DNA of 64,000 nt from Schmidtea polychroa (taxonomy: Eukaryota). Below the pieces are notes generated by a model that saw nothing but the letters and a program-made list of their open reading frames with translations, ran no database searches and was not told the origin of the DNA. The DNA is taken from the NCBI GenBank assembly GCA_044892525.1, contig CM097888.1, positions 47,802,001 through 47,866,000 on the forward strand. The letters are read 5' to 3'. This document shows, one piece after another, positions 7,010 through 62,389 of this stretch (the stretch's first letter is position 1; each line of letters opens with the position of its first letter). A program made the translations under genes and the position numbers.

Positions 7010-7471
7010 GTGTTAAAGCTCCTAGAAGAGATGTGGGCAGATAGAGAGCGGGCGCAACAGCAGTCAGAGGAATACCGGGCCAAGCTAGTACGAATCAAGA
7101 CCCATTGCCGGAATTTCGAATGTACCTGGTTCCCGCCAGCAGAAATGAAAAAACGGATGAAGCTGATCGCTCAACTGCAACTCCAGAGTGCACAGGATCA
7201 GGTTGAGCTGCGGGCCCTCCGCCTGAGGGCGAAGGAGCTGGAGATCAAGGTACACCAACAGGATCTTGATCGAGAAGTCATTTCCAAGGTCCGGCCCATG
7301 AGTGAGTTGCTCCACAAACCGAAGGAGTACGCACCACCGATAATCCCGAGGAAGAAAATCCGGCCGGGCAAGGCGGCGCGGGCGAGAATAAGACAAGCCT
7401 GCCAGGCCCAATTAACACTTCATTCTACTGGGTCAGAGTCTATTCCGAAAGAATCGACCAAGACACTATAA
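7010..7471 (+). CDS. GC-rich hypothetical ORF/exon; predicted coiled coil with a basic tail
   Basis: 153-codon open frame in otherwise AT-rich DNA; begins at a ttgttttag| acceptor-like site; AATAAA at 7492. Confidence 0.5.
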   Translation: MLKLLEEMWADRERAQQQSEEYRAKLVRIKTHCRNFECTWFPPAEMKKRMKLIAQLQLQSAQDQVELRALRLRAKELEIKVHQQDLDREVISKVRPMSELLHKPKEYAPPIIPRKKIRPGKAARARIRQACQAQLTLHSTGSESIPKESTKTL

Positions 7472-14373: not shown

Positions 14374-14407
<34 letters not shown>

Positions 14408-36055: not shown

Positions 36056-39000
36056 TTAATAATTTTCTATATGCATCATAAGGTCACAATGAGGTCTCTA
36101 GAACAGTTGTTAGTATCGTATTAGCTTGTTCCTGGTGGTATATTGGGTATTCAGAATATCATAAACTAAAGAGATTAAGTTCTACAAAACCTGTATTTTG
36201 CTATGATGTATCGTATAAGTTAAAATATCACTAAAATACAACTAAATTCAATTCACACTTGTATTTACCTTGCTCCATTCGTGATTCAATCTCTTTATAC
36301 GATCCGACGGGAATTTTTTTGAGACCCTGAACGAAAAATCCTTGAAATGGAGTTTGTCTAACTGGTAATCCTCCTTTCGGTTGAGCTTCTTTCGAAAGTA
36401 AATCACGAACATTTTCATTGTAAATTTCTAACATTGAAAATGTTACCTCATATCTCTGAATATAATATAAATTAGAATTTTTAAATAAGTTTCATAATAT
36501 TATAAATTCAAACAAAAATATCCTGAAATTCAAACTTTTATTAAAAACACTTATTTAGATTATATTAAAATCATATTGTTTAAATGATCTCTTTTCCCTG
36601 AATTGTTTTTCAAATTTCAAATCAACCATGCCAAACAAAGTTATTACTGAAGTGGTAAAAGTTGAATAAATTGACATTGTTGAAGGATTTGAGTTTTCAA
36701 CCGACGTGACTGAAAAAGATGAATATTTCATAAATAAATGACCAAAAAATGCCATTAATTACAGTTTCCATCATAAAGATTACCAAATCTGGAAGATTTT
36801 TAAATCTTTTTTGCAACTATTTTTCTCATATTATTAAATCATGTTTTACTAAGAAATCATCAATAAAACGGTTCAAGAAAACAGTGTTTCCAACTTTTTT
36901 CGGCCTATGGTCCCATTTTATTTTAATTCACTTCTATGGCCCTCCCATTTTAGTAGAATTTTAAACTTTATTCAATTACATTATATTAGCGGAGGGCTAG
37001 ACAAAGAGTACTGACGGCCACAGTACTGATCTTTTTACATGTATTTATAATGCATTTCTGAGAAAATGTTACTAAATTCTGATATATATTATATAACTTA
37101 CATTTTTTCATTAACGTCTTTCTGATTTGTCGAAAATTGTAGACAATATTAGTATACAATCAAATCTATTAATTCAAGTCGTTTTTAGCTTCAATAGGGT
37201 ATTAAACTTTTATTAAGTAGGCAAACAAGTCAAACATGTCTTTCAAAATTGTTAGTCACCTTCACCCTCTTTAGTAGGTAGCTAGTAGCCCGCGGGAGCA
37301 ATAGGGGGGGGGGGAGGGGGGTGGGGGTAAAAAATGTTGCAAACTTTTGATTGCATAATTTTTGCCGTAGACATTTTTTTGATTACATAATTGTTGCCGC
37401 ATGCTCCAATGATTTTTTTTCTGGGATTTTAAATACAAAAATTTTTTTTTCTATAAACAAGCCAAGGATAAATATTATTTGGGTGGGTCTCCTTGGTCCT
37501 GAGAATTTCAATAGAAAAGGTAGTCTACATTAATAAAGCATGGATTATTCAGACTATAGTGAGGGGGTCTCCTTGATCCTGGGATTTTCAATACAAAAAG
37601 ACGGTTTACACTAAAAAAGTTTTGTAATTCAAGGTCTCAGGATATTTTCAATACAAAAAGCCAAGGATAAACTTACCTGTGTGTAAAAATTTAATGCTGC
37701 GAAAGTTAACATATTTATTATAGGAATCTAAAAAGTGAGAGAAAATAATTAAGCATACAAACACAGCACACATAATGAAAAATACATACAAAATTAATGA
37801 AGTGTTTTTTTTGCGAAATTAACATTGATTAACATATAATTAACATATTAATATTTTCAAATTAATTAAAAAGTTATGCACAAAAAACTTTTGAATCAGA
37901 ATCCGACTGTTCTACCTTGAGCTTCAGAGAAAAAGAAGAAAATACATCGTAAGATTTAATTATAAAATAATTTAGAATATAACATTTCTTTAGATTTACA
38001 GATATTGAAGAAGGTCCTTCGACATCTTTGAATTTGCTGAAAAAAATAGCAAATCGTAAATTTTAATAAATTATTTTAACAAATTAATATTTTCATAGAA
38101 TTACAGAAAATGACAAAATTCGAAAGAAGATTACAAAAACTTAAAAAACTATTTTATCCATTCTTTCCTAAATGTCTTAAAAAAATAAATGTTTGGTGAT
38201 TACTTTATTTATTTATAATTATAAAAATATCTAACTTACATTTTTACGAAATGAATCCAAATAAAATATCATAAAATTCCTAAAAACACCTGAAATTTAA
38301 TTATCAGTATCCTATATTATAAATGATGACTAATAGTAATACTTAAGAACTTGAATAATGATCTCATAATTATATAAATCAAAATTCAAGTCCTAAAAAT
38401 TACTTCAATTCAAAAACTTACCTTAAAACGATTTTTGAAAAATTGAAAAAATGAAATTAAGTTAACATTGTCATAGTTAAATGGTGATTTAAATGGTGAC
38501 TCACCTCAACTGGTGTGCACAACAACGTATATTATAGATAATGTTAACTTTCGCAAACAGGTGTATCTACAGTCAGTAAAATCTTTTTTACACGGTCTTT
38601 TTTTACACAATTTTGAAATAATACGGTTCGTCAAGAAGAAATTTTAAAATTCTTTATACGTTATTTTTGATTTAACACGAATTCCAAAAACAAATTTTAA
38701 TTATTTACATGATTTTCTGCAATATATAATTTCAAAAGACCGCTTAAAAAAGATTTTACTGTATAAACATAATTTATGGATTATATTTATATACTATAGA
38801 TTGTTTTATATCAAATTCAGCACGATGTATAGTAATTATATTTGCAATAATACAATATTAAATGTTAAAAATATGAAAACAATTAAAATCCAATATTTAA
38901 ATTATGACAAAAATATAAATTCATAAATATATTATGTATAAAGAACATAAATAAATAAAATAAAATGTTTACTTTAATTGAAAATACACGTAATATGTCT

Positions 39001-42000
39001 TTGTTGGAAAAGATGGAAGGTAGAAAGAGAGTAGGTAGTTAGTAGCCCGCGGGAGCAATAGGGGGGGGGGGGGTGAAAAATGTTGCAAACTTTTGATTGC
39101 ATAATTTTTGCCGTAGACATTTTTTTGATTACATAATTGTTGCCGCATGCTCCAATGATTTTTTTTCTGGGATTTTAAATACAAAAATTTTTTTTTTCAA
39201 TAAACAAGCCAAGGATAAATATTATTTGGGTGGGTCTCCTTGGTCCTGAGAATTTCAATAGAAAAGGTAGTCTACACTAAAAAAGCATGGATTATTCAGA
39301 CTATAGTGAGGGGTCTCCTTGGTCCTGGGATTTTCAATACAAAAAGACGGTTTACACTAAAAAAGTTTTGTAATTCAAGGTCTCAGGATATTTTCAATAC
39401 AAATAGGTGGTCTACACTAAAAAACAGTGGCAATTTAAAGTCTCAGGATATTTTCAATACAAAAAGCCAAGGATAAATATTATTTGGGTGGGTCTCCTTG
39501 GTCCTGGGATTTTCAATACAAAAATCCGATTATCACTAAAAAAAGCCATAGTTATTTAAGATCTCAGGATATTTTCAATAGAAAAAGGTAGTCCTCCAAT
39601 AAAAAAGCATGGATTATTCAGACTATAGTGAGGGGTCTCCTTGGTCCTGGGATTTTCAATACAAAAAGACGGTTTACACTAAAAAAGTTTTGTAATTCAA
39701 GGTCTCAGGATATTTTCAATACAAATAGGTGGTCTACACTAAAAAACAGTGGCAATTTAAAGTCTCAGGATATTTTCAATACAAAAAGCCAAGGATAAAT
39801 ATTATTTGGGTGGGTCTCCTTGGTCCTGGGATTTTCAATACAAAAATCCGATTATCACTAAAAAAAGCCATAGTTATTTAAGATCTCAGGATATTTTCAA
39901 TAGAAAAAGGTAGTCCTCCAATAAAAAAGCATGGATTATTCAGACTATAGTGAGGGGTCTCCTTGGTCCTGGGATTTTCAATACAAAAAGACGGTTTACA
40001 CTAAAAAAGTTTTGTAATTCAAGGTCTCAGGATATTTTCAATACAAATAGGTGGTCTACACTAAAAAACAGTGGCAATTTAAAGTCTCAGGATATTTTCA
40101 ATACAAAAAGCCAAGGATAAATATTATTTGGGTGGGTCTCCTTGGTCCTGGGATTTTCAATACAAAAATCCGATTATCACTAAAAAAAGCCATAGTTATT
40201 TAAGATCTCAGGATATTTTCAATAGAAAAAGGTAGTCCTCCAATAAAAAAGCATGGATTTTTCACACTATAGTGAGGGGGGGGGTCTCCATAGTCCTAGG
40301 ATTTTCAATACAAAAAGACGGTTTACACTAAAAAAGTATGGTAATTCAAGGTCTCAGGTTATTTTCAATACAAAAAGGTGGTCTACACTAAAAAACATGG
40401 TAAATTTTTTAAAATAAAGCAAATTATGGGTCTAAATATTGAATTACATTAAATAATGGGTCTAAAAATTGAATTACAGTAATCAATGGTCAATAATTTT
40501 AATTTAAAGTTAAATAAGTAAATTAAAGGCTAAATTATGAAATTAAAGTAAATCAAGGTCCAAAATTTTAAACTAAAGTAAATGATGGGTCTAATAATTG
40601 AATTAAAGTAATCAATGGGATGAAATAAGTAAATTAAGGTTCAAATTAGTAAATTAAGATCCAAAAAAAAAATTAAATTAAAGTAATCAATGGGTTCAAA
40701 TGAGTTAATTAAGGTTCTAAAAAAAAATTAAATTAAATTAATCAACGGGTTCAAATAAGTTAATTAAGGTTCTAAAAAAAATTAAATTAAAGTAATCAAT
40801 GGGTTCAAATGAGTTAATTAAGGTTCTAAAAAAAATTAATTTAAATTAATCAACGGGTTCAAATAAGTTAATTGAGGTCTAAAATTTAAAATTAAAGCAA
40901 TCAATGAGTTCAAATAAGTAAATTAAGGTCCAAATATTTAAATTAAAGTAATCAATGGGCTCAAATAACTAAATAAAGGTTCTAAAAAATAAAATTAGAG
41001 ATAATTAAGGTTCAAAATTTAAAATTAAGTAATCAATGGTAAAAAAAAACTTTAAATTAAAGTTAAATAAGTAAATTTAAGTAATGTAATAAGTAAAAAA
41101 AGTTAAAGTTAGATTTTAAAAGTTATTTACAAAAAGTTGGAATAATAGTTGGTGATTGAGAATTGAAAATTTTAAATGAAAATTTTTAACGTATATTTTT
41201 TAAGATAATTTTTAATAGACATTTTTATGAAATATTTTTCAATGTTAATTTTAGATGAAAATTTTAATGAAATAATTATTTTTTAAGTTAATTTTTTATG
41301 AATTATTTTTCAATGTTAATTTTAGATGGAAAGTTTTATGTATTATTTTTCAATAGTAATTAAAGATGCAAATCATTGTCAATTAATCATTCACTACATG
41401 AAATTATTGGTAAAATATGAAAATAATGGCTATATTTGGTTGTAAATTATGGTAAAAAAAATTTAAATAAAGTAATACAAGGATAAATAGGTAAAATAAT
41501 GTTTTATTTTTAAATTATAGGTTCAAAACTTTAAATTAAAATTTATAAACAAAAAGTTGGAATAACCAACCGCTTCTGAGAAATAAAAATTTAAAATAAA
41601 AATTTTAAATAAAATTTTTAAGAAATAATTTTTTAAAGTCAAATTTTAATAGAAACTTTTATGGAATAATTTTTTTAAGTTAATTTTTATTGAAAATATT
41701 TATGAAATATTTTTTTTAAGTTAAATTTGAATAGAAATATTTATGGTATAATTTTTGAAGCTAATTTTAAATAGAAATTTTAATGAATTAATAATTGTCA
41801 AAGGCAAATTTAGATGCAAATTTCAATGATAATAAAAATTAATAATAAAATTAATTATTAATATTATTAAAAATAATAATCATAATAAAAATAATATTAA
41901 TATTAATAAAAATAATAANNNNNNNNNNNNNNNNNNNNNNNNNNNNNNNNNNNNNNNNNNNNNNNNNNNNNNNNNNNNNNNNNNNNNNNNNNNNNNNNNN

Positions 42001-45000
42001 NNNNNNNNNNNNNNNNNNNNNNNNNNNNNNNNNNNNNNNNNNNNNNNNNNNNNNNNNNNNNNNNNNNNNNNNNNACAACTATCAGGTACAACTAGATACC
42101 AAGTACATACAACCAACTACTAAGTACCTACAACTATGTACTAACAACCAACTAAGTATTCTTTATTGTATTTTATCAAATGATTTTTAAATTAATTTTT
42201 ATCTGTCTTCAAAAATATATTTAATTACAATCAGTAGAAAAAATCTTTTCAAAATGTCTAAATTTAACAAAAATGTTGATTTTCATCAAAAATGAATAAT
42301 TGTCAACTCATCACTACTTGGAATTCAAAATAATTTAAATTACAATGAAAGACTAATGAATTCTAATTTACAAAACATTCTTCTTTTAATTGATTACTAC
42401 TGACTTATTATTGCAAAGTAAAAATCACATTCAATAACTACTTATTGTTGATCAGTTTTATTATATATACTCTTAGTCTATCTGACAGGATGTTTTGACC
42501 CGCTAAGGGTACTGGTCGTAAGGGTACTGATAGTAAGGGTATTAGTCGTAAAGGTACTAGTCGTAAGGGTATTGGTAACACTCAACCACCAACTACCCAT
42601 TAACTAGCTACTAAGTACTATCAACCAGTTACCTGCTACCATGTACTAACAACCACCATCAAAACCTATCGAGAAATTAACAAATATATACAACTATATG
42701 ACAACAATCAGTAAACAACATTGCACCAACAACCAAGTACAAGATACCAACAACTTAATATCATCTACCAGTAACTATAAACACGTATTTTCAACTAGAT
42801 ACCAAGTACTTACAACAATATACCAAATGCTATCAGTTAAGTACTTACAACAAGATACCAAGACTATCAGCAAAATACTATCAACTAACAACACATAAAA
42901 ATAATAGCAATTAAATACAAAATATTCTTCATCACATGCAATATATTCTTGTCATCATCTACAACTAAACTCTATCAATCAGATACCAAATATTAACAAC
43001 CAGATACTTACAACCAACAACTATGTAATAACAAATTGATCTTTAAAAGAAAATACTCTTCACTTGAAAAATTGGATGAAAAATTAATAAAAAAAATGCA
43101 ATTCATTAATTAACTGATTACCAGTACTTGTATGATTTTCCAATAACTAGATAAAAATTAAATAAATCATTGTAAAAATTTAAATTATTCAAAATATAAT
43201 AAATATGAAAATGTAATGGACGAAAGAACTTTAAATTCTAGTCATTAATCATCCAGTAAATAAAAAAAATACTGATCATTCAAGTTAATCAACTAAGATA
43301 ATAAAGATAATAAGATCTAGTAGATAATTTATTTTGATTGAATAAATTAACTGAAATAAATTAATTTTAATTATTTTTTAAAAGTAATACACGTATATTC
43401 AAATCTATTTACTAATTCCTCAAATTATACACAAAATTCAGTATGAATTCATTACCATTATCAAAGTCAACAATCTACAATAAAAATAATTATCATTAAA
43501 TTCCAAAAGAGACTAGATAACTAATGATAACATCTAATAAACCAGTAAATTCATTTAAATGTCAATAATTGGTATATCCAAGTAAATTTTCTACTAAAAT
43601 CATCTAGAAAGGATCAAATTTCCATGAAATATCAATGTCTTTAAAGATAAGTATTTTATCGATAAATACCCTTAAAAGGCTATATATTTCCCTCAGACTA
43701 ATAAGATTGCTTAAAATCCCGTTTAAATAACTATAATTATATCTTTAATTTCTATTATCACGAATATTTCCCTATAAAACATGTAAAATCATTAACTCTA
43801 AACAATTTATAAAGTCTAATGACAAAAAAACAGTTATAATTAAATTTTTGTTCTAAAAATAAATCACTGTAATCGAAATTTAAAATAAATATTGCTTGAA
43901 ATTTGACTATACAATATAACTGAGTAGTTGCATAGAAAGATTAAATTTATCCATATTTCTTCAAATGATCATTTTTACCGATATTCAACCGATTTAATTA
44001 CTAATTAAAATCACCCGATAGATTTCTCCCAATAAAGATCAATTTTCTTTAGTCAACGTTTTAAGTCCATATTTCCAACTTATGTCGTTGTCCGTCTAAA
44101 TAAAGATAAAAATAATTTAAAGTTGATATCAATCCCAATTATCTGTAAAGATTTCATTGTCAAAACCAAGTAAATCGATCATTATCTCTACTTAATAAAA
44201 CATTGTTCTAAATTAATTTACTGTGCATTAATCACAACCTAATAAAAAGATATAATTTCACATTATTATTGATAAAACATTGATATTTTACCAACATCTC
44301 CCTTACAATGATATATTCCCATCTTAACCCATCCTTCATTAAATTCAATCGACTATATCTCCCTTACAATGATATATTCCCATTTTAACTCATCCCTCAT
44401 TAAATTTAACCGACTATATCTCCCTTAAAAGATCATATTTTCCCATCTTAACCGATCTCTCATTAAATCCCACCGACAATATCCCAGCTAAACCGATCTC
44501 TAACCAAATATTTCTACCCCTTTAAACATTTATCCGACTATATCCATTAATTCTACCCACTTGAATCCTCCTTTAATTCAATCAATCCTCTTAAAATTCT
44601 TAGAGAATTCTTCAAAAATATGAATTTTTATTAACTGTTATCGACATCCAAAATACATCTATGAAATAATTTAGTATCTAAATTCACGTAGTAAAAGATC
44701 AAAATTCACTAAAGTTTTCTACAAATATTTAACCTATCAAATACCTAACTAGAGATGATATATATTGATTGTTCATAAAAGCAAACTAAATCACAAATTT
44801 CTGTATATCCTACAATAATTATCAAGTAAATTAAAAGTCCTTGATAAAGTTAACTGGTTTCTTAGCTTATGTTTTTTTTAAAAGTTCATCAATGTGTAAA
44901 TATTCTTAGAAAATTATTGAAAAATTATTTAGTCAAATGCATTACAAAGTCATCTAAAATTAAACCAATTACTTAATTATTAACCTAACAGTCATTAAAA

Positions 45001-48000
45001 AAAATTAATTTTTATTTAAAATTTAACAAATTATCAAGAAATTCAATTAAAATCATCATTAAAACTTTAAATTTTTAATAAATCAACATGAAATTCTTAG
45101 AAAATATATGAAAAAAATATTATTACAAAGTCATATCCTATCACATGATTATTAACTTACTGTCATTAAAAATAATTTTTATTTAAAATTAAAAAAACAA
45201 TCAATAAAAATGCATCCAATTATCAAGAAATTAATTAAATTTATCTTAGAACTAACTTAAAATTTTTAAATATTCATTCAATCCACATGAAATTCATGAA
45301 AATGATCACTATCACAAAAACCATCAACTCAAAAAAAAATTACTAATGAATACCCTAAACAACAAAATTTATCTAAATAATCTTTCAAATTAATTCATTA
45401 AAATTGAAGACAACACGCTCTATTTTGTCATTAAATTCAATTAAAATTAAATAAATCAAGATAAGAACTTTGATAAAAAATATTATTCTAAAATGGTAAG
45501 AATTAACACTGTTGTGTTAAATGAAAAGGTAATTATTCTTTAAATCTAATTAACGTAGTCATAATTTTCTTTAATTTAACCCTTTATTTACTTAATTTAG
45601 TCCTTGTTTACCAAATATAGAAGTTTAAAATATAGACCATTGATTACTTTAATTAAAAAATGTATCCCTTAATTTACATAATTTCCATCTAAAATTATTT
45701 CAAAAAATTTTTTCTAAAATTTTCATTGAAAAATATTTCATAAAAATTTTCATTAAAAATTATCTTAAAAATTATTTCATAAAAATTTTCATTAAAAAAT
45801 TTCAATTCTCAAACACCTTCTATTATTTTGTTAATAAATTTTAAAATCTTACTTTAATTTGCTTTAATTTACTTATTTAAAAATTATTACTTTAATTTAC
45901 TTATTTAACTTTAATTTAAATTTTTTTACCATTGATTACTTAATTTAAAAATTTGGACCTTAATTAACTTTAATTTAATTTTTTAGAACCTTAATTTACT
46001 TTAATTTTAAATTTTAGACCATAATTTACTTAATTGAAAATTTTAGACTTTATTTTAGAACTTAATTGAAAATTTTAGACCTTAATTTACTTAATTGAAA
46101 ATTTGAGACCATAATTTGCTTAATTGAAAATTTTAGAACTTAATTTACTTAATTGAAATTTTAGACCTTAATTTACTTAAGTTTAAAAATATATACCATA
46201 ATTTACTGAAATTGAAAAATTTGGACCATAATTTACTGTAATTTAATTTTTTAGAACCATAATTTATTGTAATTGAAAAATTTGGACCTTAATTACTTAA
46301 TTGAAAATTTTAGACCTTAATTGAAAATTTTAGACCATAATTTTCATGTAAAATTGTCATTGAAAAAATTTTCATTTCTCAGGCGCCGTTTAGTAGGTAG
46401 TTAGGAGCCCGCTGCAAGTGCAAGCCTTTTTTTTTGCTGCATCTTTTTTTTGCTGCAGGTAATTGCGGCAGCGGGCTACTACAGAAATTTGTGATTTAGT
46501 TTGCTTTTATGAACAATCAATATATATCATCTCTAGTTAGGTATTTGATAGGTTAAATATTTGTAGAAAACTTTAGTGAATTTTGATCTTTTACTACGTG
46601 AATTTAGATACTAAATTATTTCATAGATGTATTTTGGATGTCGATAACAGTTAATAAAAATTCATATTTTTGAAGAATTCTCTAAGAATTTTAAGAGGAT
46701 TGATTGAATTAAAGGAGGATTCAAGTGGGTAGAATTAATGGATATAGTCGGATAAATGTTTAAAGGGGTAGAAATATTTGGTGAGAGATCGGTTAAGCTG
46801 GGATATTGTCGGTGAGATTTAATGAGAGATCGGATAAGGTGGGAATATACGATCTTTTAAGGGGGATATAGTTGGTGGGATTTAATGAGAGATCGGTTAA
46901 GATGGGAAAATATGATCTTTTAAGGGAGATATAGTCGGTTAAATTTAATGAGGGATGGGTTAAAATGGGAATATATCATTGTAAGGGAGATGTTGGTAAA
47001 ATATCAATGTTTTATCAATAATAATGTGAAATTATATCTTTTTATTAGGTTGTGATTAATGCACAGTAAATTAATTTAGAACAATGTTTTATTAAGTAGA
47101 GATAATGATCGATTTACTTGGTTTTGACAATGAAATCTTTACAGATAATTGGGATTGATATCAACTTTAAATTATTTTTATCTTTATTTAGACGGACAAC
47201 GACATAAGTTGGAAATATGGACTTAAAACGTTGACTAAAGAAAATTGATCTTTATTGGGAGAAATCTATCGGGTGATTTTAATTAGTAATTAAATCGGTT
47301 GAATATCGGTAAAAATGATCATTTGAAGAAATATGGATAAATTTAATCTTTCTATGCAACTACTCAGTTATAGTGTACAGTCAAATTTCAAGCAATATTT
47401 ATTTTAAATTTCGATTACAGTGATTTATTTTTAGAACAAAAATTTAATTATAACTGTTTTTTGTCATTAGACTTTATAAATTGTTTAGAGTTAATGATTT
47501 TACATGTTTTATAGGGAAATATTCGTGATAATAGAAATTAAAGATATAATTATAGTCATTTAAACGGGATTTTAAGCAATCTTATTAGTCTGAGGGAAAT
47601 ATATAGCCTTTTAAGGGTATTTATCGATAAAATACTTATCTTTAAAGACATTGATATTTCATGGAAATTTGATGCTTTCTAGATGATTTTAGTAGAAAAT
47701 TTACTTGGATATACCAATTATTGACATTTAAATGAATTTACTGGTTTATTAGATGTTATCATTAGTTATCTAGTCTCTTTTGGAATTTAATGATAATTAT
47801 TTTTATTGTAGATTGTTGACTTTGATAATGGTAATGAATTCATACTGAATTTTGTGTATAATTTGAGGAATTAGTAAATAGATTTGAATATACGTGTATT
47901 ACTTTTAAAAAATAATTAAAATTAATTTATTTCAGTTAATTTATTCAATCAAAATAAATTATCTACTAGATCTTATTATCTTTATTATCTTAGTTGATTA

Positions 48001-51000
48001 ACTTGAATGATCAGTATTTTTTTTATTTACTGGATGATTAATGACTAGAATTTAAAGTTCTTTCGTCCATTACATTTTCATATTTATTATATTTTGAATA
48101 ATTTAAATTTTTACAATGATTTATTTAATTTTTATCTAGTTATTGGAAAATCATACAAGTACTGGTAATCAGTTAATTAATGAATTGCATTTTTTTTATT
48201 AATTTTTCATCCAATTTTTCAAGTGAAGAGTATTTTCTTTTAAAGATCAATTTGTTATTACATAGTTGTTGGTTGTAAGTATCTGGTTGTTAATATTTGG
48301 TATCTGATTGATAGAGTTTAGTTGTAGATGATGACAAGAATATATTGCATGTGATGAAGAATATTTTGTATTTAATTGCTATTATTTTTATGTGTTGTTA
48401 GTTGATAGTATTTTGCTGATAGTCTTGGTATCTTGTTGTAAGTACTTAACTGATAGCATTTGGTATATTGTTGTAAGTACTTGGTATCTAGTTGAAAATA
48501 CGTGTTTATAGTTACTGGTAGATGATATTAAGTTGTTGGTATCTTGTACTTGGTTGTTGGTGCAATGTTGTTTACTGATTGTTGTCATATAGTTGTATAT
48601 ATTTGTTAATTTCTCGATAGGTTTTGATGGTGGTTGTTAGTACATGGTAGCAGGTAACTGGTTGATAGTACTTAGTAGCTAGTTAATGGGTAGTTGGTGG
48701 TTGAGTGTTACCAATACCCTTACGACTAGTACCTTTACGACTAATACCCTTACTATCAGTACCCTTACGACCAGTACCCTTAGCGGGTCAAAACATCCTG
48801 TCAGATAGACTAAGAGTATATATAATAAAACTGATCAACAATAAGTAGTTATTGAATGTGATTTTTACTTTGCAATAATAAGTCAGTAGTAATCAATTAA
48901 AAGAAGAATGTTTTGTAAATTAGAATTCATTAGTCTTTCATTGTAATTTAAATTATTTTGAATTCCAAGTAGTGATGAGTTGACAATTATTCATTTTTGA
49001 TGAAAATCAACATTTTTGTTAAATTTAGACATTTTGAAAAGATTTTTTCTACTGATTGTAATTAAACATATTTTTGAAGACAGATAAAAATTAATTTAAA
49101 AATCATTTGATAAAATACAATAAAGAATACTTAGTTGGTTGTTAGTACATAGTTGTAGGTACTTAGTAGTTGGTTGTATGTACTTGGTATCTAGTTGTAC
49201 CTGATAGTTGTNNNNNNNNNNNNNNNNNNNNNNNNNNNNNNNNNNNNNNNNNNNNNNNNNNNNNNNNNNNNNNNNNNNNNNNNNNNNNNNNNNNNNNNNN
49301 NNNNNNNNNNNNNNNNNNNNNNNNNNNNNNNNNNNNNNNNNNNNNNNNNNNNNNNNNNNNNNNNNNNNNNNNNNNNNNNNNNNNTTATTATTTTTATTAA
49401 TATTAATATTATTTTTATTATGATTATTATTTTTAATAATATTAATAATTAATTTTATTATTAATTTTTATTATCATTGAAATTTGCATCTAAATTTGCC
49501 TTTGACAATTATTAATTCATTAAAATTTCTATTTAAAATTAGCTTCAAAAATTATACCATAAATATTTCTATTCAAATTTAACTTAAAAAAAATATTTCA
49601 TAAATATTTTCAATAAAAATTAACTTAAAAAAATTATTCCATAAAAGTTTCTATTAAAATTTGACTTTAAAAAATTATTTCTTAAAAATTTTATTTAAAA
49701 TTTTTATTTTAAATTTTTATTTCTCAGAAGCGGTTGGTTATTCCAACTTTTTGTTTATAAATTTTAATTTAAAGTTTTGAACCTATAATTTAAAAATAAA
49801 ACATTATTTTACCTATTTATCCTTGTATTACTTTATTTAAATTTTTTTTACCATAATTTACAACCAAATATAGCCATTATTTTCATATTTTACCAATAAT
49901 TTCATGTAGTGAATGATTAATTGACAATGATTTGCATCTTTAATTACTATTGAAAAATAATACATAAAACTTTCCATCTAAAATTAACATTGAAAAATAA
50001 TTCATAAAAAATTAACTTAAAAAATAATTATTTCATTAAAATTTTCATCTAAAATTAACATTGAAAAATATTTCATAAAAATGTCTATTAAAAATTATCT
50101 TAAAAAATATACGTTAAAAATTTTCATTTAAAATTTTCAATTCTCAATCACCAACTATTATTCCAACTTTTTGTAAATAACTTTTAAAATCTAACTTTAA
50201 CTTTTTTTACTTATTACATTACTTAAATTTACTTATTTAACTTTAATTTAAAGTTTTTTTTTACCATTGATTACTTAATTTTAAATTTTGAACCTTAATT
50301 ATCTCTAATTTTATTTTTTAGAACCTTTATTTAGTTATTTGAGCCCATTGATTACTTTAATTTAAATATTTGGACCTTAATTTACTTATTTGAACTCATT
50401 GATTGCTTTAATTTTAAATTTTAGACCTCAATTAACTTATTTGAACCCGTTGATTAATTTAAATTAATTTTTTTTAGAACCTTAATTAACTCATTTGAAC
50501 CCATTGATTACTTTAATTTAATTTTTTTTAGAACCTTAATTAACTTATTTGAACCCGTTGATTAATTTAATTTAATTTTTTTTTAGAACCTTAATTAACT
50601 CATTTGAACCCATTGATTACTTTAATTTAATTTTTTTTTTGGATCTTAATTTACTAATTTGAACCTTAATTTACTTATTTCATCCCATTGATTACTTTAA
50701 TTCAATTATTAGACCCATCATTTACTTTAGTTTAAAATTTTGGACCTTGATTTACTTTAATTTCATAATTTAGCCTTTAATTTACTTATTTAACTTTAAA
50801 TTAAAATTATTGACCATTGATTACTGTAATTCAATTTTTAGACCCATTATTTAATGTAATTCAATATTTAGACCCATAATTTGCTTTATTTTAAAAAATT
50901 TACCATGTTTTTTAGTGTAGACCACCTTTTTGTATTGAAAATAACCTGAGACCTTGAATTACCATACTTTTTTAGTGTAAACCGTCTTTTTGTATTGAAA

Positions 51001-54000
51001 ATCCTAGGACTATGGAGACCCCCCCCCTCACTATAGTGTGAAAAATCCATGCTTTTTTATTGGAGGACTACCTTTTTCTATTGAAAATATCCTGAGATCT
51101 TAAATAACTATGGCTTTTTTTAGTGATAATCGGATTTTTGTATTGAAAATCCCAGGACCAAGGAGACCCACCCAAATAATATTTATCCTTGGCTTTTTGT
51201 ATTGAAAATATCCTGAGACTTTAAATTGCCACTGTTTTTTAGTGTAGACCACCTATTTGTATTGAAAATATCCTGAGACCTTGAATTACAAAACTTTTTT
51301 AGTGTAAACCGTCTTTTTGTATTGAAAATCCCAGGACCAAGGAGACCCCTCACTATAGTCTGAATAATCCATGCTTTTTTATTGGAGGACTACCTTTTTC
51401 TATTGAAAATATCCTGAGATCTTAAATAACTATGGCTTTTTTTAGTGATAATCGGATTTTTGTATTGAAAATCCCAGGACCAAGGAGACCCACCCAAATA
51501 ATATTTATCCTTGGCTTGTTTATTGAAAAAAAAAATTTTTGTATTTAAAATCCCAGAAAAAAAATCATTGGAGCATGCGGCAACAATTATGTAATCAAAA
51601 AAATGTCTACGGCAAAAATTATGCAATCAAAAGTTTGCAACATTTTTCACCCCCCCCCCCCTATTGCTCCCGCGGGCTACTAACTACCTACTCTCTTTCT
51701 ACCTTCCATCTTTTCCAACAAAGACATATTACGTGTATTTTCAATTAAAGTAAACATTTTATTTTATTTATTTATGTTCTTTATACATAATATATTTATG
51801 AATTTATATTTTTGTCATAATTTAAATATTGGATTTTAATTGTTTTCATATTTTTAACATTTAATATTGTATTATTGCAAATATAATTACTATACATCGT
51901 GCTGAATTTGATATAAAACAATCTATAGTATATAAATATAATCCATAAATTATGTTTATACAGTAAAATCTTTTTTAAGCGGTCTTTTGAAATTATATAT
52001 TGCAGAAAATCATGTAAATAATTAAAATTTGTTTTTGGAATTCGTGTTAAATCAAAAATAACGTATAAAGAATTTTAAAATTTCTTCTTGACGAACCGTA
52101 TTATTTCAAAATTGTGTAAAAAAAGACCGTGTAAAAAAGATTTTACTGACTGTAGATACACCTGTTTGCGAAAGTTAACATTATCTATAATATACGTTGT
52201 TGTGCACACCAGTTGAGGTGAGTCACCATTTAAATCACCATTTAACTATGACAATGTTAACTTAATTTCATTTTTTCAATTTTTCAAAAATCGTTTTAAG
52301 GTAAGTTTTTGAATTGAAGTAATTTTTAGGACTTGAATTTTGATTTATATAATTATGAGATCATTATTCAAGTTCTTAAGTATTACTATTAGTCATCATT
52401 TATAATATAGGATACTGATAATTAAATTTCAGGTGTTTTTAGGAATTTTATGATATTTTATTTGGATTCATTTCGTAAAAATGTAAGTTAGATATTTTTA
52501 TAATTATAAATAAATAAAGTAATCACCAAACATTTATTTTTTTAAGACATTTAGGAAAGAATGGATAAAATAGTTTTTTAAGTTTTTGTAATCTTCTTTC
52601 GAATTTTGTCATTTTCTGTAATTCTATGAAAATATTAATTTGTTAAAATATTTTATTAAAATTTACGATTTGCTATTTTTTTCAGCAAATTCAAAGATGT
52701 CGAAGGACCTTCTTCAATATCTGTAAATCTAAAGAAATGTTATATTCTAAATTATTTTATAATTAAATCTTACGATGTATTTTCTTCTTTTTCTCTGAAG
52801 CTCAAGGTAGAGCAGTCGGATTCTGATTCAAAAGTTTTTTGTGCATAACTTTTTAATTAATTTGAAAATAATAATATGTTAATTATATGTTAATCAATGT
52901 TAATTTCGCAAAAAAAACACTTCATTAATTTTGTATATATTTTTCATTATGTGTGCTGTGTTTGTATGCTTAATTATTTTCTCTCACTTTTTAGATTCCT
53001 ATAATAAATATGTTAACTTTCGCAGCATTAAATTTTTACACACAGGTAAGTTTGTGTGTTCCTATAACATATATTTATTGATTTTTTTAGATTATAGGCT
53101 ATGTTAACTTTCTCACTTAGGTGTACATACAAATTCACCTGCATGTTAAAATTTCAATAGCAGTTACACCTGCTTATTTATTATAGGAATCCAGATAGAG
53201 TAAAGAAATTAATAAAACATACAATTACGATGAGTGCAATTTCTATAATATCAAACATGCAAACAAGCGATAAAATACACCACTTAAAAAATATACCCAT
53301 TTATAAAAAAAATATTTATTAAAATTATTGTTAAAAAGTCATTTACATTTTATTAAAAAATATTTTAAAAAAATCATGGGCGAGTGGGTTTATAAATTTT
53401 AAAATTTTGATATTTATTTAATTATTTAATAAATTTAAAAATTAATAATAACCTTATAATAATTTAATTATATTTGATTTATGATAGAAATATTTATTTA
53501 ATGTACGCTTTAATAATTTAATGAATAAAATTTCATTTTCGTTTGCAAACCTAATAAAATACTGTTTCGTTTATTTTTAAATTTACAATAAATATGGTTA
53601 TTTAATTTATATATTTATTTTTTATTGCACAAAATATTTGTTTTAAAGCACTTTTACATATAAATCTTATTATGAATTTTTATTGTTTGATTGAATAAAA
53701 TTATTAAATTTTCTTAAATTTGTAATTATTTCAAATTAATGGACATTGATATAAAATTTAAAAGCATTGTTGAAAATATGCAATAGATTAATAAATAATT
53801 TAATTAAAATTTAAATAATAAACAAAAGCTTAATTTAATTTGAAATATGAAAACAAGATAAATAAAATTTGTATAAATTTTTGTTTAAATATTTTAAAAC
53901 ACTTAAAAAATTAAATTTATTTGTTACAATAATATCCAATAACAATATTGTTGTTTGTCATACATGGATGATTCCGTATTTATAGCATTAATAATAATCG

Positions 54001-57000
54001 CCCATTGTTACATTACGATAACAAATGAAAAATGAAAATAATAATTTTTATTTTCTTACTAAATATGCACGAAACTTAAACATGCTAAAATCAAGATAAG
54101 AGTCAAGAAAATCAAAGAAAATGCTATTTGAGAAATAATAACTTCTCATTTCATCATTAAGTTTTTCTATTGAATTCCTTGCGGAAAATATTTGGACAAA
54201 ATTATATTTTATTTATTAATATTCATATAATGAAATATATTTATCAAGTTTACCATTGAGTTAGATGAATTTGTTTCCATTTTCTTGAAGAGTTCATCAC
54301 AAATGACTGGAACAATTCCTCTGAAAGAAATACATAAGATTATAACCAAGATATTTTAGACAGACTTAAAAATAATACTATTTATTATTATTATTATCAG
54401 CCCCCAGAAGAGGGGGGGGTCAGGAGGGTCTTTTGACATGGGCCTCTTAATTTAAGGGTCCCCAAACAACACTTTTTTCATACTAGTAGTAGAGGAGTTT
54501 AAGCGTACTCAAACGCATAAAAAATTATTTAAGATCAACCATTCTCCAGGATCATGTAAATGGTTTGGGGACGCTAAATATTAATTGTGATATTGCAAGA
54601 AATGTGGACTTCCGAATTAATAAGTTCGTTTGCAGCTCTAAAAGCTCGAAGAGCTCATTTTTAAATGTATTTATTAATTAATATATTTCGAATTAGATTT
54701 TTTAAAGTTTTGAAATAATAAATTTTTAATCAGTAAAAAGTATACATTTTTGTTATATTTTTCATTATATAAGGGCCACATAAGATGTCAGACCTGGGCC
54801 TCCAANNNNNNNNNNNNNNNNNNNNNNNNNNNNNNNNNNNNNNNNNNNNNNNNNNNNNNNNNNNNNNNNNNNNNNNNNNNNNNNNNNNNNNNNNNNNNNN
54901 NNNNNNNNNNNNNNNNNNNNNNNNNNNNNNNNNNNNNNNNNNNNNNNNNNNNNNNNNNNNNNNNNNNNNNNNNNNNNNNNNNNNNNNNNNNNNNNNNNNN
55001 NNNNNNNNNNNNNNNNNNNNNNNNNNNNNNNNNNNNNNNNNNNNNNNNNNNNNNNNNNNNNNNNNNNNNNNNNNNNNNNNNNNNNNNNNNNNNNNNNNNN
55101 NNNNNNNNNNNNNNNNNNNNNNNNNNNNNNNNNATTTCAAAATTTTGTAATATCAAAATCATACTTATTAGCTCCATATCCAACCATAGAGTATGATTTT
55201 CCTGACCCGGTTTGACCATATGCAAATAACGAGCAATTGTAACCAATAAAGGCATTTTCTAGCACGCTTTTACCTAGATCTTCAAAAACACTTTTCTGGC
55301 TAGCATATCGAGAATTTAGTCCATCGGGAATTAGAAATCCGTTTGTGTCTTCCACAAATTCATCATGAGACCTTTCAAAAATGACAAATATTATAATATG
55401 TTTTATAAATAAAATATGATAAAAATTTAAACAAATATTCTATTTTAACTTGGAATACAAGAATAATATTGTGTTTCATTAAGGTATGATAAAATATAGA
55501 AAATAAAACATTGCGAGACGAGAAACGCTCTTCAAAGTTTATACTATAAATAGATATGCACTGTCTAAATTTGATTAAGTTTCCCACACGGTTGATGCCT
55601 TGGGAATAAATAACTATTCTTCTTTAATACAATATAGCTTTTCTTCTATCAGTTATATGATTTATCATCTTTGAGACATGGCTTCTCTTTAATTTTTTCG
55701 ATACTCTATTGTTTTCAATCTATAATTTCTTGTTTTATTAAATTTCTCCATAGTTTCTGACTTCCATAAACCTCTAGAACTTGTCAATTTTGGTATAAAA
55801 GTTAATTATTGACTAAATCCCAAAAATCAACATGATTTGTTCAGTGATACCAATTCATTAGAGCTGTTAATTACTGATCCAAATTAACTGAACATCTCTT
55901 AACAATGGTATCTGAGCTCTAGAGAAATCTAATTATCCAATGTGATAAAGCGCATACGTCAGCCATATTCGAGATTATCCAATTTGTAAGTTAATTAGTT
56001 CCCACAAAAATCCAATCAAAAGTGATTTCTCATATTCATTCCCCATAAAGCATCATATTAAGAACCAGTTCCCAAGCAAATCAACCCTGCATAAACCAAT
56101 CCCAAACAAATCAACCCTTGCATAAACCAATTCCAAAGCAAATCAACCCTGCATAAACCGATCCCCAACCAAATCAACCCTGCATAAACCGATCCCCAAC
56201 CAAATCAACCCTTGCATAAACCAATCCCCAAACAAATCAACCCTGCATAAACCAATCCTCAACCAAATCAACCCTGCATAAACCAATCCCCAACCAAATC
56301 AACCCTGCATAGATCAATCCCCAAACAAATCAACCCTGCATAAACCAATCCCCAACCAAATCAACCCCACATAAATCAATCCCCAAACAAATCAACCCTG
56401 CATAAACCAATCCCCAAACAAATCAACCCTGCATAAACCAATCCCCAAACAAATCAACCCTGCATAAACCAATCCCCAAGCACATCAACCCTTGCATAAA
56501 CCAATCCCCAAACAAATCAACCCTGCATAAACCAATCCCCAAGCACATCAACCCTTGGATAAACCAATTCCCAAACGTATCAACCCTTGCACAAATTAAC
56601 CCTCAACCAATCATCTTGTGACCCATTCATTACACCGTTAAATAAAAGTTACCATTTACCTCTTATTATTTATCGACCTCAAACAATGAAGAAATCCAAA
56701 AAATGATTTTTCACTAAACAAATTGAATGAAAAATTCCGCAAAATGTGAAAAAAAAAGATTTTAATTAAAAGCTGAAAAGAGAGAAAAAAAAGGTTGAAT
56801 ATATAATTAAAATATTTATTAATAAATAATTTACCAATAAGAATAATCGAAAGTGAAAACTTTTTTATCAGTTGAATCTACAAAATTATAAGTTTAAAAT
56901 TCATTTTGAGCAATTAACTTGCTTTCGGGATTTGTTATTATCGTTGTATTTCCTTGCATATCTATTGTTAATTTCGCTGATCTATCCTTTTCTCTTTGAT

Positions 57001-58362: not shown

Positions 58363-58722
58363 TTATGTAGCTCTCAGCATTTCTCCGGCAGTCATGGGTC
58401 TAGGTTTTAATGAATTGTAGTATAACCGAAGAAAAGGATTTCTTTCTATTCTTGATGTTTCTGACTTGCAGTCTTCATATTTGTCAAGTAATAAGACCCG
58501 GTTATCTTCATAATAGTCTGAAGAATATTTAGATCTAAATTTACCGAACTGTCGGCTATAAAGTCGCATTCCATACATCAAGAATGCAGTTTTGGATTTC
58601 ATTTTCTCTAATGGCTGTACAATTAAGTTAGTTTTCGTTATTGCTTGGTTTGATTCTTTTGATTTGTTTTCTGCATTTTGCAACATTCTTATATCTCTCT
58701 CTTGCAACTGAATTACGTATTT
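58363..58722 (-). CDS. Probable terminal coding exon of an unidentified upstream gene
   Basis: ttcttcag acceptor followed by 119 open codons (KYVIQLQERDIRMLQN...MLRAT*). A candidate preceding micro-exon at 60259-60222 is phase-compatible. Confidence 0.55.
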   Translation of the reverse strand, partial: KYVIQLQERDIRMLQNAENKSKESNQAITKTNLIVQPLEKMKSKTAFLMYGMRLYSRQFGKFRSKYSSDYYEDNRVLLLDKYEDCKSETSRIERNPFLRLYYNSLKPRPMTAGEMLRAT

Positions 58723-59639
58723 CTGAAGAAAAATAAAACAAATAAATNNNNNNNNNNNNNNNNNNNNNNNNNNNNNNNNNNNNNNNNNNNNNNNNNNNNN
58801 NNNNNNNNNNNNNNNNNNNNNNNNNNNNNNNNNNNNNNNNNNNNNNNNNNNNNNNNNNNNNNNNNNNNNNNNNNNNNNNNNNNNNNNNNNNNNNNNNNNN
58901 NNNNNNNNNNNNNNNNNNNNNNNNNNNNNNNNNNNNNNNNNNNNNNNNNNNNNNNNNNNNNNNNNNNNNNNNNNNNNNNNNNNNNNNNNNNNNNNNNNNN
59001 NNNNNNNNNNNNNNNNNNNNNNNNNNNNNNNNNNNNNNNNNNNNNNNNNNNNAATAACTGAAATATAAAAATAGAGAAATATGAATCTCCAGATTTAATC
59101 AGTAATCCAAAATTAATATTTGTCAAAACCGGAAATTTCACAAAACGCATTATTCGGTTTTTCTGTTAAATTGTTTTAAGTGGTAATTAACAATTACAGT
59201 TCCTGCAACAGGAAAATTAGGGGCAATGTTAGGGAGAAAGTAATTAAAATAGAAAATTCACCCGTTTCATCAGCAATGGCTGTTAATAATAAATTCTGTC
59301 GAATAGAAACAAATATTTGATTTTATATTAATTAAAACAAATTGTCGAATATATGTACATTGTTTATTTTATGAGCAAATAATCTTTTTATTACTATAAC
59401 GCTTGTCAAGTTTTGTTTTGAATTTTCCTGAAGCACAAAGAATATGTTTATTTTATTCTTTGGTTTATTTATGTGTTTGTTTTAATCTATTTATATATTT
59501 ATAGAAACTCTAGATTATAGATGGATACCATTTGTGCATAGATTTTGTTTTATAAGCACTCAATTAGAGTATACATTATTGCGTATTTTATTTATAATCT
59601 AAAAAAGAGTTTCTACACACAATTCTGAAATTTAGTAAT

Positions 59640-60300
59640 ATCTATAATTCACGTTGGTGTGCACACAAATTGAGGTGACTCACCATTTACGTGAAAATGA
59701 AGTTATTCAATTTCATTTATTCAATTTCTTAAAAATTGTTTTCAACTAATTTTTTAAATTTCAAGTAACTTTTAAGACTTGAATTTTGATTTTATATAAT
59801 TATGAGATTATTATTCAAGTTCTTAAATATTGCTGTTTGTCACCATTTATAATATAACATATTGATAATTAAATTTCAGGTGTTTTTTTAGGAATTTTAT
59901 GACATTTTATGAATTTATTTGGAATTATTTCGATAAAATGTAAGTTAGATATATTTTTAACTATAAATAAATAAACTAATCACCGAATACATTAATTTTT
60001 TTAATACAATTAAGAAAGAAGCGGCGTACATGTATGAAATAGTTTTTTGAATTTTTATAATCTTCTTTCTGCATCTCATTTTCCCCATTCTCAAAGGCAT
60101 TAATAAGCCGAATTTTGTCATTTTCTGTATATCTATAAAAATATTAATTTATTTAAATTTACGAATTGTAAATTTCTTTCAGCAAATTCTGATGTTTTGT
60201 AATTTAATGAATAAATCTTACATTGTCAGATTTCCACCTTCGCGAAAAGGCAGTGTATCCTGTAAATCTAAAGAGTTTATATTCAATTTGTACCTCTATT
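59640..60300. repeat. Diverged copy of the sequence at ~52120-52790 (inverted at ~37940-38600)
   Basis: Shared blocks such as GGTGTGCAC, GACTTGAATTTTGATTTATATAATTATGAGAT and CTGTAAATCTAAAGA. Confidence 0.8.
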
Positions 60301-61183: not shown

Positions 61184-61785
61184 AAATCAAGAGCAATGTA
61201 ACAGTTTATCTAATATTTGAACAATTTCTATTTCGACAATAGCTGTAAAACTGTAACCTCGCTCTGTCAGTATTTTCATCATATAATCTGCCAAATATAT
61301 ACATTTCAAATCCATTCTGCGAACTGCATGAAGCAATGCATATTCTTCATAAATTAGCATAATATGTGGTGCATCATCTTCAAAATTTAGAACGACACCT
61401 CCTGTACTAATTGAAGCGTACAAAGAAAGAATTGCTTGAATTGCAACACAAATGGTTTGAGCTTTGAATATTTCATATATAATTTGAGTCATATTTTTTC
61501 TGTTAACTTCTAAATTCTGTGGCGTTTCGGTAAGAAGAACTGAATACTCTCCTGGCGTATTTTTAAATTCAATGTAGAATATATGATGCCAGGTCTTTTT
61601 CAAATCATCCAAATTAATAACAATATCGTGTTCAGTCGCAGATTTAAGAGTTAAAATACTTCTCTTAGGCAGAGCCTCACAACCAACATAGCTATCTTTT
61701 TGATCCATACAAACCATAACTCCCTTATGTCTTGGTCTAAAAGTCCGAAAAACAAATCGTTCCAGAAGCATCGAAAATCCACAAG
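61184..61785 (-). pseudogene. ACT: Truncated, diverged, intronless actin pseudogene (about residues 20-222)
   Basis: RPRHKGVMV, QKDSYVG, WHHIFY, VLLTE, AIQAILSLYAS, YMMKILTERGYSF align to actin. Many radical substitutions, indels at both ends, no N- or C-terminus. Confidence 0.9.
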
Positions 61786-62389
61786 AATTGAATAACTCAG
61801 CAATCAAAAAAATTTCAGACAAAATGAATAAACATTTAAACTCGACAATTCGTGTCTGCAACCAAAAAATAACACGCGTGCGCACACAGACGCGAATAGT
61901 CTGAATTAACAATATACATGTGAAATAGAAACATTAAATAAAATAAAAAACTATTTTAATATTGTTGGGTCTTGAAAATTGATTATTCAACACGAGAAGT
62001 CAGGTTAACATTTTCATAAAAAACAAAACCATATAAAATTTGTATTATATATTGCAGTTGAAACCCGTTTATATGAACTTTTAGGACAATAACAAATGAA
62101 AATATTATCCGAATGATACAATTTTTAATAAAAGTTCAAAAATGTTAACATTATATAAAAAGCTCAAACAAAAAATGTAAAGCAAAATTGCATACTTTAC
62201 CGCATCCGTATTATCTTTTATCCAATCATAAATCGTGCTCCTTTTAAAGCGCAATTCATGACATCTAAATAATACTAATGCACTTTTATTTATTCTTTCC
62301 ACAATTGTCAATTTTTTTTATCAACTCATAACATACTTTTTCTTTTTTTTTATTTTCATTTAAAATTTAATAAGTTATAATGTATTTAA

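What the first reader, a model, noticed from the sequence alone, without database searches (positions are those of the whole stretch)
37267..51698. Non-coding element with Polinton/Maverick end signature in kinesin intron 5
Seen: matching inverted termini that begin AGTAGGTAG..TAGTAG, flanked by an exact 6-bp duplication CTCTTT. The empty site reads continuously (..CACCTTCACC-CTCTTT-CTACCTTCC..). TIRs contain tandem arrays and the interior has no recognisable ORF. Established: Polintons/Mavericks have 6-bp TSDs, 5'-AG..CT-3' termini made of short simple repeats (slide-back priming by protein-primed PolB) and long, often repeat-containing TIRs; non-autonomous derivatives are known. Inference: an originally ~8-9-kb non-autonomous Maverick mobilised in trans, i.e. 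a satellite-like parasite of a virus-like transposon.
Basis: partly seen in the sequence, partly recalled or inferred. Interest (0 to 1): 0.8.

Follow-up and report, generated by a model that had tools for sequence, protein, structure and literature searches.

The report
Rearranged gene-less Maverick-like transposon in intron
A gene-less jumping DNA element, whose ends resemble those of the virus-like Maverick transposons, sits in an intron of a motor-protein gene, and about half of its apparent length is a mirror-image copy made by a later chromosome break or by the genome assembly; it looks like a fairly ordinary genomic parasite.

Summary
The end signature is real: inverted AG..CT termini at 37273 and 51692, an exact 6-bp duplication (CTCTTT), no coding remnant found, inside intron 5 of a KIF28-like kinesin (minus strand). 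But the 14.4 kb is not one simple element. 37669-44805 is an inverted near-copy of 46480-53053 and includes 1,361 bp of the host's right flank and a second right end (39030). Only 396 bp of the true left end remain. A fourth copy of the 21-bp terminus (46392) starts a 90-bp hairpin mini-element that is cut at the second junction. Unique element sequence is 7.3-7.9 kb. The layout is deletion-inversion-duplication with a 1.67-kb spacer, as fold-back repair gives; it may be real (about 0.55) or assembly-made (about 0.4). Mobilisation by Maverick/Polinton proteins in trans is the best reading (about 0.6), but it rests on one TSD and the terminal bases. The end is AGTAGG, not the vertebrate (AGT)2, and hAT6 also makes 6-bp TSDs. 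No partner element or further locus could be searched. Non-autonomous Polintons are known, so this is probably a new member of a known kind.

The parts
37267..37272 (+). left target-site duplication CTCTTT
37273..37668 (+). true left end: 21-bp terminus, G-run, start of the 322-bp-unit array; cut at junction 1
   Evidence: 6 substitutions in 373 aligned bases against the 39030 copy, plus indels
37669..39029 (-). inverted copy of the right TSD and host flank 51693-53053 (1,361 bp), with a mir-753-like hairpin at 38340-38399
   Evidence: 4 substitutions, all in the first 403 bp; Rfam match below gathering score
39030..44805 (-). inverted copy of the element's right part (second right end at 39030; 322-bp, 54/30-bp and 40-bp arrays; N-gap 41919-42074; non-coding interior)
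   Evidence: carries 580 bp more array than the right-hand copy
44806..46391 (.). single-copy spacer; 45680-46343 is a 65-78% identical inverted relative of the arrays at 40400-41790, read as the inner part of the original left TIR, now inverted
46392..46481 (+). 90-bp hairpin mini-element with the same 21-bp terminus; its right end lacks the last 10 bases at junction 2
   Evidence: DNA fold -21.8 kcal/mol, z -4.8, 0 of 200 shuffles as stable
46482..51692 (+). right part of the element: non-coding interior, N-gap 49212-49384, subterminal arrays, right terminus ending CT
51693..51698 (+). right target-site duplication CTCTTT
51699..53053 (+). host intron flank that was copied into 37669-39023
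36456..54253 (-). intron 5 (coding-exon count) of a KIF28/KLP-6-like kinesin-3 gene; flanking exons 54254-54320 and 36267-36455
   Evidence: splice sites and frames; homologs; FHA and KIF1B domains downstream

Best explanation
Step 1 (shown): a gene-less DNA transposon of about 8-9 kb with AG..CT ends and repeat-rich TIRs inserted into kinesin intron 5 and left a 6-bp duplication. Step 2 (inferred): the integrase that did this, and probably the protein-primed polymerase that copied it, came in trans from an autonomous Maverick/Polinton that recognises the same ends. Step 3 (inferred from sequence): a roughly 100-bp sister element with the same 21-bp ends had inserted into the arrays of the left TIR. 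Step 4 (layout shown, cause inferred): a break in the left TIR was repaired by fold-back or two template switches. This deleted part of the left TIR, inverted 1.67 kb and duplicated 6.6 kb of right part plus host flank in inverted orientation. The locus is now an inert fossil that is spliced out with the intron. Step 4 may instead be an assembly product.
For: 6-bp TSD with AG..CT ends in one register only. Polintons make 6-bp TSDs and vertebrate ones end in (AGT)2 or (AG)3, with TIRs of 46-1,447 bp (PMC8097293); here 5 of 6 bases match (AGT)2. The other 6-bp group with stated ends, IS3EU/GingerRoot, has TA..TA or TG..CA ends. A zebrafish family named Polinton-1N1_DR exists (name only), and polB-less polintons appear to have stayed mobile in butterflies. 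Planarian genomes are rich in Mavericks, if the host is one. Non-coding interior. For step 4: both junctions are gap-free and lack long homology; spacer 1.67 kb with 2-bp microhomology lies in the range of human fold-back duplications (766-70,466 bp; 2 bp in 7 of 13); a delINVdup class is described. The arms differ in 61-bp array units and by 11 other substitutions, so two templates existed.
Against: One complete insertion only, so TSD length is n=1. AGTAGG is not a perfect repeat as the jumping-back model wants. No Maverick gene remnant (0 of 109 pieces). hAT6 also gives 6-bp TSDs and its termini were not found in the passages read. A 100-bp member with 24-bp TIRs and arrays of a repeated subterminal motif (31 copies inside, 0 outside) look as much like cut-and-paste families. 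No non-autonomous Polintons were seen in anole. Host identity as planarian is weak: mir-753 hits are below the gathering score, the planarian link is recalled, and a nematode miRNA bears the same name. For step 4: microhomology this short is common by chance (>=2 bp 0.26, >=3 bp 0.115); the gaps are mirrored to the base; a 3.4-kb run without a substitution (P=0.002) shows the middle of the arms is probably one shared assembly consensus.
Confidence: 0.55

Rival explanations
1. The insertion is real but belongs to a cut-and-paste DDE family with 6-bp TSDs (hAT6 or an unclassified family); the subterminal arrays are transposase binding sites and the 90-bp piece is an ordinary MITE.
For: hAT6 makes 6-bp TSDs. 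Short-TIR mini-element. Regularly repeated 16-bp motif in the arms. hAT and MULE elements are present in the same window.
Against: The two hAT-type elements here have CAG or TAG starts; one has a clear 8-bp TSD and the other sits in a TA run compatible with 8 bp. IS3EU ends are TA..TA. AG-first ends are the reported Maverick pattern.
Confidence: 0.27
2. The 15-kb palindrome is an assembly product: two haplotypes or a collapsed repeat laid out in opposite orientations, with a simple 8-9-kb element underneath. This rival concerns step 4 only.
For: Base-exact mirrored gaps; substitutions confined to the ends of the block, 1.0% and 0.6% against 0.02% in the middle; junction 1 starts inside a tandem array; seven N-gaps in the window.
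Against: Both junctions are N-free and share only 2-3 bp, too little for a repeat-driven misjoin. They form one consistent fold-back path. Collapse of the middle is expected whether the duplication is real or allelic.
Confidence: 0.4
3. 39030-51692 is a primary Foldback-type element with 5.8-kb modular TIRs.
For: Two 5.8/5.2-kb arms built of tandem arrays around a 1.67-kb centre.
Against: The mirror runs 1,361 bp on into host DNA and the unit has a mirrored flank, not a direct TSD. The direct TSD pairs 37273 with 51692.
Confidence: 0.07
4. The left end really starts one base earlier (TAG) with a 4-bp TSD, as for an AcademX-like element.
For: Both forward ends (37273, 46392) are preceded by T; a 4-bp match exists at shift -1. 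AcademX makes 3-4-bp TSDs; its TAG start is recalled, not read.
Against: Needs a mutation of the last base at the right end; likelihood ratio 25-120 for AG/6 bp over assumed mutation rates 0.05-0.01.
Confidence: 0.04

Closest known systems
Non-autonomous Polintons/Mavericks (e.g. the name Polinton-1N1_DR, seen in PMC9341505)
   Same: 6-bp TSD, AG..CT ends, TIRs of several hundred bases or more, no pPolB.
   Different: End hexamer AGTAGG rather than (AGT)2/(AG)3; no gene remnant; nested 90-bp sister element; secondary inverted duplication. I saw only the family's name, not its structure.
Autonomous Mavericks/Polintons (PMC8097293, PMC3014272)
   Same: TSD length, terminal dinucleotides, TIR scale.
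   Different: No pPolB, integrase, ATPase, protease or capsid genes; 7-9 kb against 12.7-24.6 kb for intact vertebrate elements.
hAT6 and IS3EU/GingerRoot (PMC12730594, PMC10045372)
   Same: 6-bp TSD, TIRs.
   Different: IS3EU/GingerRoot ends are TA..TA or TG..CA; hAT6 ends were not given in the passages read; no transposase here.
Fold-back inverted duplications / delINVdup rearrangements (PMC3907307, PMC5829575)
   Same: Inverted duplication beside a deletion, single-copy spacer of 1-2 kb, 2-bp microhomology at the fold-back junction.
   Different: Kilobase scale, interstitial, inside a transposon in an invertebrate intron; not confirmed by reads.
Foldback-type elements (recalled: long modular TIRs made of tandem subrepeats)
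   Same: As assembled, very long array-rich inverted arms.
   Different: Here the long arms come from a duplication that includes host flank.

Membership tests
Maverick/Polinton (autonomous) | encodes protein-primed PolB and retroviral-like integrase | tested here: not met
   longest frame 82 aa in 42075-46391; 0 of 109 pieces hit such Pfam families; 156-173 N unread, arrays 39030-41040 mostly not scanned
Maverick/Polinton (autonomous) | ATPase, protease, major and minor capsid genes | tested here: not met
Non-autonomous Maverick derivative | 6-bp target-site duplication | tested here: met
   CTCTTT, chance about 0.002, one insertion only
Non-autonomous Maverick derivative | 5'-AG..CT-3' termini | tested here: met
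Non-autonomous Maverick derivative | terminal hexamer is a perfect short repeat such as (AGT)2 or (AG)3 | tested here: inconclusive
   AGTAGG matches 5 of 6; the reference motifs are from vertebrates only; no flatworm termini were seen in any paper read
Non-autonomous Maverick derivative | TIRs of tens to more than a thousand bases | tested here: met
   about 390 bp at 98% between true left and right ends before the junction; diverged arrays further in
Non-autonomous Maverick derivative | ends shared with an autonomous Maverick in the same genome | not testable with these tools
   no eukaryotic genome search on hand; none in the window
Non-autonomous Maverick derivative | several dispersed copies, each with a 6-bp TSD | not testable with these tools
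   the one other independent end (46392) has lost its right flank
IS3EU/GingerRoot | TA..TA or TG..CA termini with 6-bp TSD | tested here: not met
   ends are AG..CT; no TSD at the register that starts TA (shift +2)
hAT6 | 6-bp TSD | tested here: met
hAT6 | hAT-type termini or a shared hAT transposase partner | not testable with these tools
   hAT6 termini not given in the passages read
AcademX / AcademH | 3-4-bp or 9-10-bp TSD | tested here: not met
   4-bp reading needs a terminal mismatch, LR 25-120 against; no 9-10-bp match in any register
Helitron | no TIRs and no TSD (recalled) | tested here: not met
   TIRs and TSD are present
Foldback-type element | long modular TIRs bounded by a direct TSD | tested here: not met
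   unit 39030-51692 has mirrored flanks, not a direct TSD

The most novel reading that the evidence does not exclude
Maverick proteins move a tiered set of purely non-coding satellites in this genome, from 8-9 kb down to about 100 bp that keep only 21-24-bp ends, so those few bases would be the whole cis signal for Maverick integration. In addition, a real fold-back event has made a new 12.7-kb unit (39030-51692) with two intact ends and 5-6-kb arms, which would show how giant-TIR foldback elements can arise from Maverick derivatives.
Probability: 0.15. Interest if true: 0.65.

Novelty: new member of a known kind. Interest (0 to 1): 0.33.

Why it matters
If the Maverick link holds, the family and above all the 90-100-bp member would mark the minimal end sequence that Maverick proteins need, which is poorly known, and would add a non-canonical end motif from an invertebrate. 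Non-autonomous Polintons are rarely discussed in the searchable literature (3 papers for six phrases), so a documented family has modest value for repeat libraries. The rearrangement is a caution: long 'TIRs' in short-read assemblies can be duplications that include host DNA. No effect on the kinesin gene is indicated; the two exons flanking the intron are in frame.

Tried and rejected
Coding remnants: none; the Pfam scan of short pieces would miss heavily decayed genes. Rfam over 37000-53500: 7 matches at E<=1, all in the duplicated host flank, none in element sequence, all below gathering. Interior 42075-46481 against phage records: no match. 21-bp terminus in GTDB genomes: 0 matches, uninformative for a eukaryotic element. 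Terminal motifs in papers: 320 papers held at least one of four motifs, 30 were listed, none was about transposon ends by title and none of the 30 held either 11-mer; 290 were not seen. Similarity of the mini-element interior to the big terminus: not significant (score 19, shuffles mean 16, max 28), so I dropped the idea that it is a sister family's left end. Extension of the diverged TIR into 44806-45600: none. Terminal 140-150 bases do not fold better than shuffles. Host species: not determined; named kinesin hits are 65-75% identical across flatworms, molluscs and others, and two paper searches did not tie mir-753 to planarians. Kapitonov and Jurka 2006 and the AcademH paper were not held, so their content is second-hand or recalled. 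No supplements were read; terminus tables in supplements (e.g. of PMC8097293) could bear on the end-motif test. Viral and metagenome contig collections stayed unchecked.
Full report
Observation. The hexamer CTCTTT lies at 37267-37272 and 51693-51698, and between them the sequence starts AGTAGGTAG at 37273 and ends with its reverse complement at 51692. I tested five boundary registers; only the unshifted one gives identical terminal bases together with a duplication, which is 6 bp. Two random flank 6-mers match with probability about 0.002. The 21-bp terminus occurs four times in the window and never in 100 shuffles. Splice sites and frames place the feature in 36456-54253, the fifth intron from the ATG exon of a minus-strand kinesin. 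One exon's best named relatives are mostly KIF28/KLP-6-type kinesins at 65-75% identity (120 of 1,631 hits listed).

No genes. The longest stop-free frame in 42075-46391 is 82 aa, and 40 of 200 composition-matched simulations reach that. Of 109 six-frame pieces of 22 aa or more from 41040-41918 and 42075-46391, 7 had a Pfam match at E<=0.1, none at a curated cut-off and none to a Maverick-type protein. I did not scan most of the arrays or the mirrored arm, and 156-173 bases are N. Rfam found nothing in element sequence.

The interval is not one simple element. Self-comparison shows that 37669-44805 is an inverted copy of 46480-53053. The outer part has 3,665 matches, 4 substitutions and two indels (1 and 580 bp); the inner part has 28 substitutions, 21 of them in a 61-bp array. 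The copy contains 1,361 bp of the right TSD and host flank and a second right end at 39030. The true left end is only 37273-37668 and differs from the right end by 6 substitutions in 373 bases plus indels. The single-copy spacer carries, at 45680-46343, arrays 65-78% identical in inverted orientation to those at 40400-41790; I read these as the inner part of the original left TIR. At 46392-46481 a fourth terminus opens a 90-bp hairpin (z -4.8) whose right end lacks 10 bases exactly at the second junction. Its interior is not significantly like the large element's end.

How the layout arose. The order is left end, inverted flank and right part, inverted spacer, right part, flank: a deletion, an inversion and an inverted duplication with two junctions, sharing 3 and 2 bp (the 3 bp rests on a paralogous array unit). 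Human fold-back duplications have spacers of 766-70,466 bp and 2-bp microhomology in 7 of 13 junctions (PMC3907307, passages), and a delINVdup class with template switching as a proposed cause is described (PMC5829575, passages). The arms hold different units of the 61-bp array (by inspection), so two templates existed. Against a real event: such short microhomology is common by chance here (0.26 and 0.115), the two gaps are mirrored to the base, and 11 substitutions outside the array leave a 3.4-kb run with none (P=0.002 under uniformity; the gap, the 580-bp indel and the array were left out of that count). The middle is thus probably a shared consensus, and the two templates could be haplotypes. 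I put a real rearrangement at about 0.55 and an assembly product at about 0.4.

Which machinery moved it. Vertebrate Mavericks have 6-bp TSDs, TIRs of 46-1,447 bp and end motifs (AGT)2, (AG)3 or (AC)3A, which are thought to allow jumping-back priming (PMC8097293, section 7 whole and passages). The anole element has a 6-bp TSD and 584-bp TIRs, and no non-autonomous copies were seen there (PMC3014272, passages). Here the end is AGTAGG, 5 of 6 with (AGT)2; the AG at positions 1-2 recurs at 4-5, which could allow a jump back (my inference). IS3EU and GingerRoot also make 6-bp TSDs but end TA..TA or TG..CA, and AcademX and AcademH make 3-4 and 9-10 bp (PMC10045372, passages). hAT6 makes 6-bp TSDs; its termini were not in what I read (PMC12730594, passages). 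A TAG-start, 4-bp reading is disfavoured 25- to 120-fold. A 16-bp motif recurs 31 times inside the interval and 0 times outside, which suits protein binding sites but does not name the protein. Non-autonomous Polintons are known: the name Polinton-1N1_DR appears in PMC9341505 (one passage), Tlr1 has been viewed as one (PMC5499653, passage), and butterfly polintons without polB seem to have stayed mobile, others having 2-kb TIRs (bioRxiv 10.1101/2025.02.07.637071, passages). I put Maverick machinery at about 0.6 and a cut-and-paste family at about 0.27.

Host context. The window is AT-rich and has three mir-753-like hairpins at 52.8-54.6 bits, below the gathering score of 62. That mir-753 is a planarian family is my recall; two searches did not show it and a nematode miRNA carries the name (PMC4842261, passage). 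If the host is a planarian, Mavericks are abundant there (PMC8532177 and bioRxiv 10.64898/2025.12.11.693146, passages), which raises the prior. PMC8502044 (passages) has no flatworm mention and PMC6431247 (passages) gave background only.

Novelty. Searches for this element's ends, for non-autonomous Polintons, for planarian Polintons and for repeat-rich Maverick TIRs listed no paper describing it, but Repbase and Dfam were not available and it may be catalogued there. It is not an autonomous Maverick, since the defining genes were tested and not found. It works like a non-autonomous Maverick derivative; membership cannot be settled without a partner and more copies. The boldest reading left open is a 100-bp Maverick satellite and a new giant-arm unit made by fold-back (about 0.15).

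Noticed in passing
window 3820-6123 (+): hAT-type element with 12-bp TIRs starting CAG, exact 8-bp TSD and a transposase-like sequence split over frames 4169-5994 (weak BED finger match).
   Followed up: partly
window 14405-17574 (-): Element with 14-bp TIRs starting TAGGG in a TA run and a transposase-like sequence in three frames; no Pfam match; I recall this pattern as hATm.
   Followed up: partly
window about 18015-19820 (+): MULE element with an open 475-aa FLYWCH plus MULE transposase frame and repeat-rich ends; ends not fixed.
   Followed up: partly
window 52323-52382 (+), 38340-38399 (-), 59768-59829 (+): mir-753-like hairpins below the Rfam gathering score, inside a 455-bp repeat shared at 80% between 52170-52600 and 59627-60069; may be a repeat-borne miRNA family.
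   Followed up: partly
window 61187-61933 (-): Diverged intronless actin-like frame, probably a pseudogene.
   Followed up: no
window 6059-7542: GC-rich stretch (42-45%) with 134-171-aa frames and no Pfam match in the two scanned, partly overlapping the hAT end; unexplained.
   Followed up: no
window 56878-56924 (-): Kinesin intron 2 keeps the reading frame only with a GC donor, by inspection of the frames.
   Followed up: partly
window 56063-56595: 31-bp tandem array, 17 copies, in kinesin intron 3.
   Followed up: no
window 42504-42576 and 48710-48782: 15-bp tandem array and scattered 21-bp repeats inside the element's interior; possibly a remnant of another nested element.
   Followed up: no
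window 58363-58728 (-): 121-aa open stretch next to an N-gap upstream of the kinesin start, no Pfam match; possibly an exon of a neighbouring gene.
   Followed up: no
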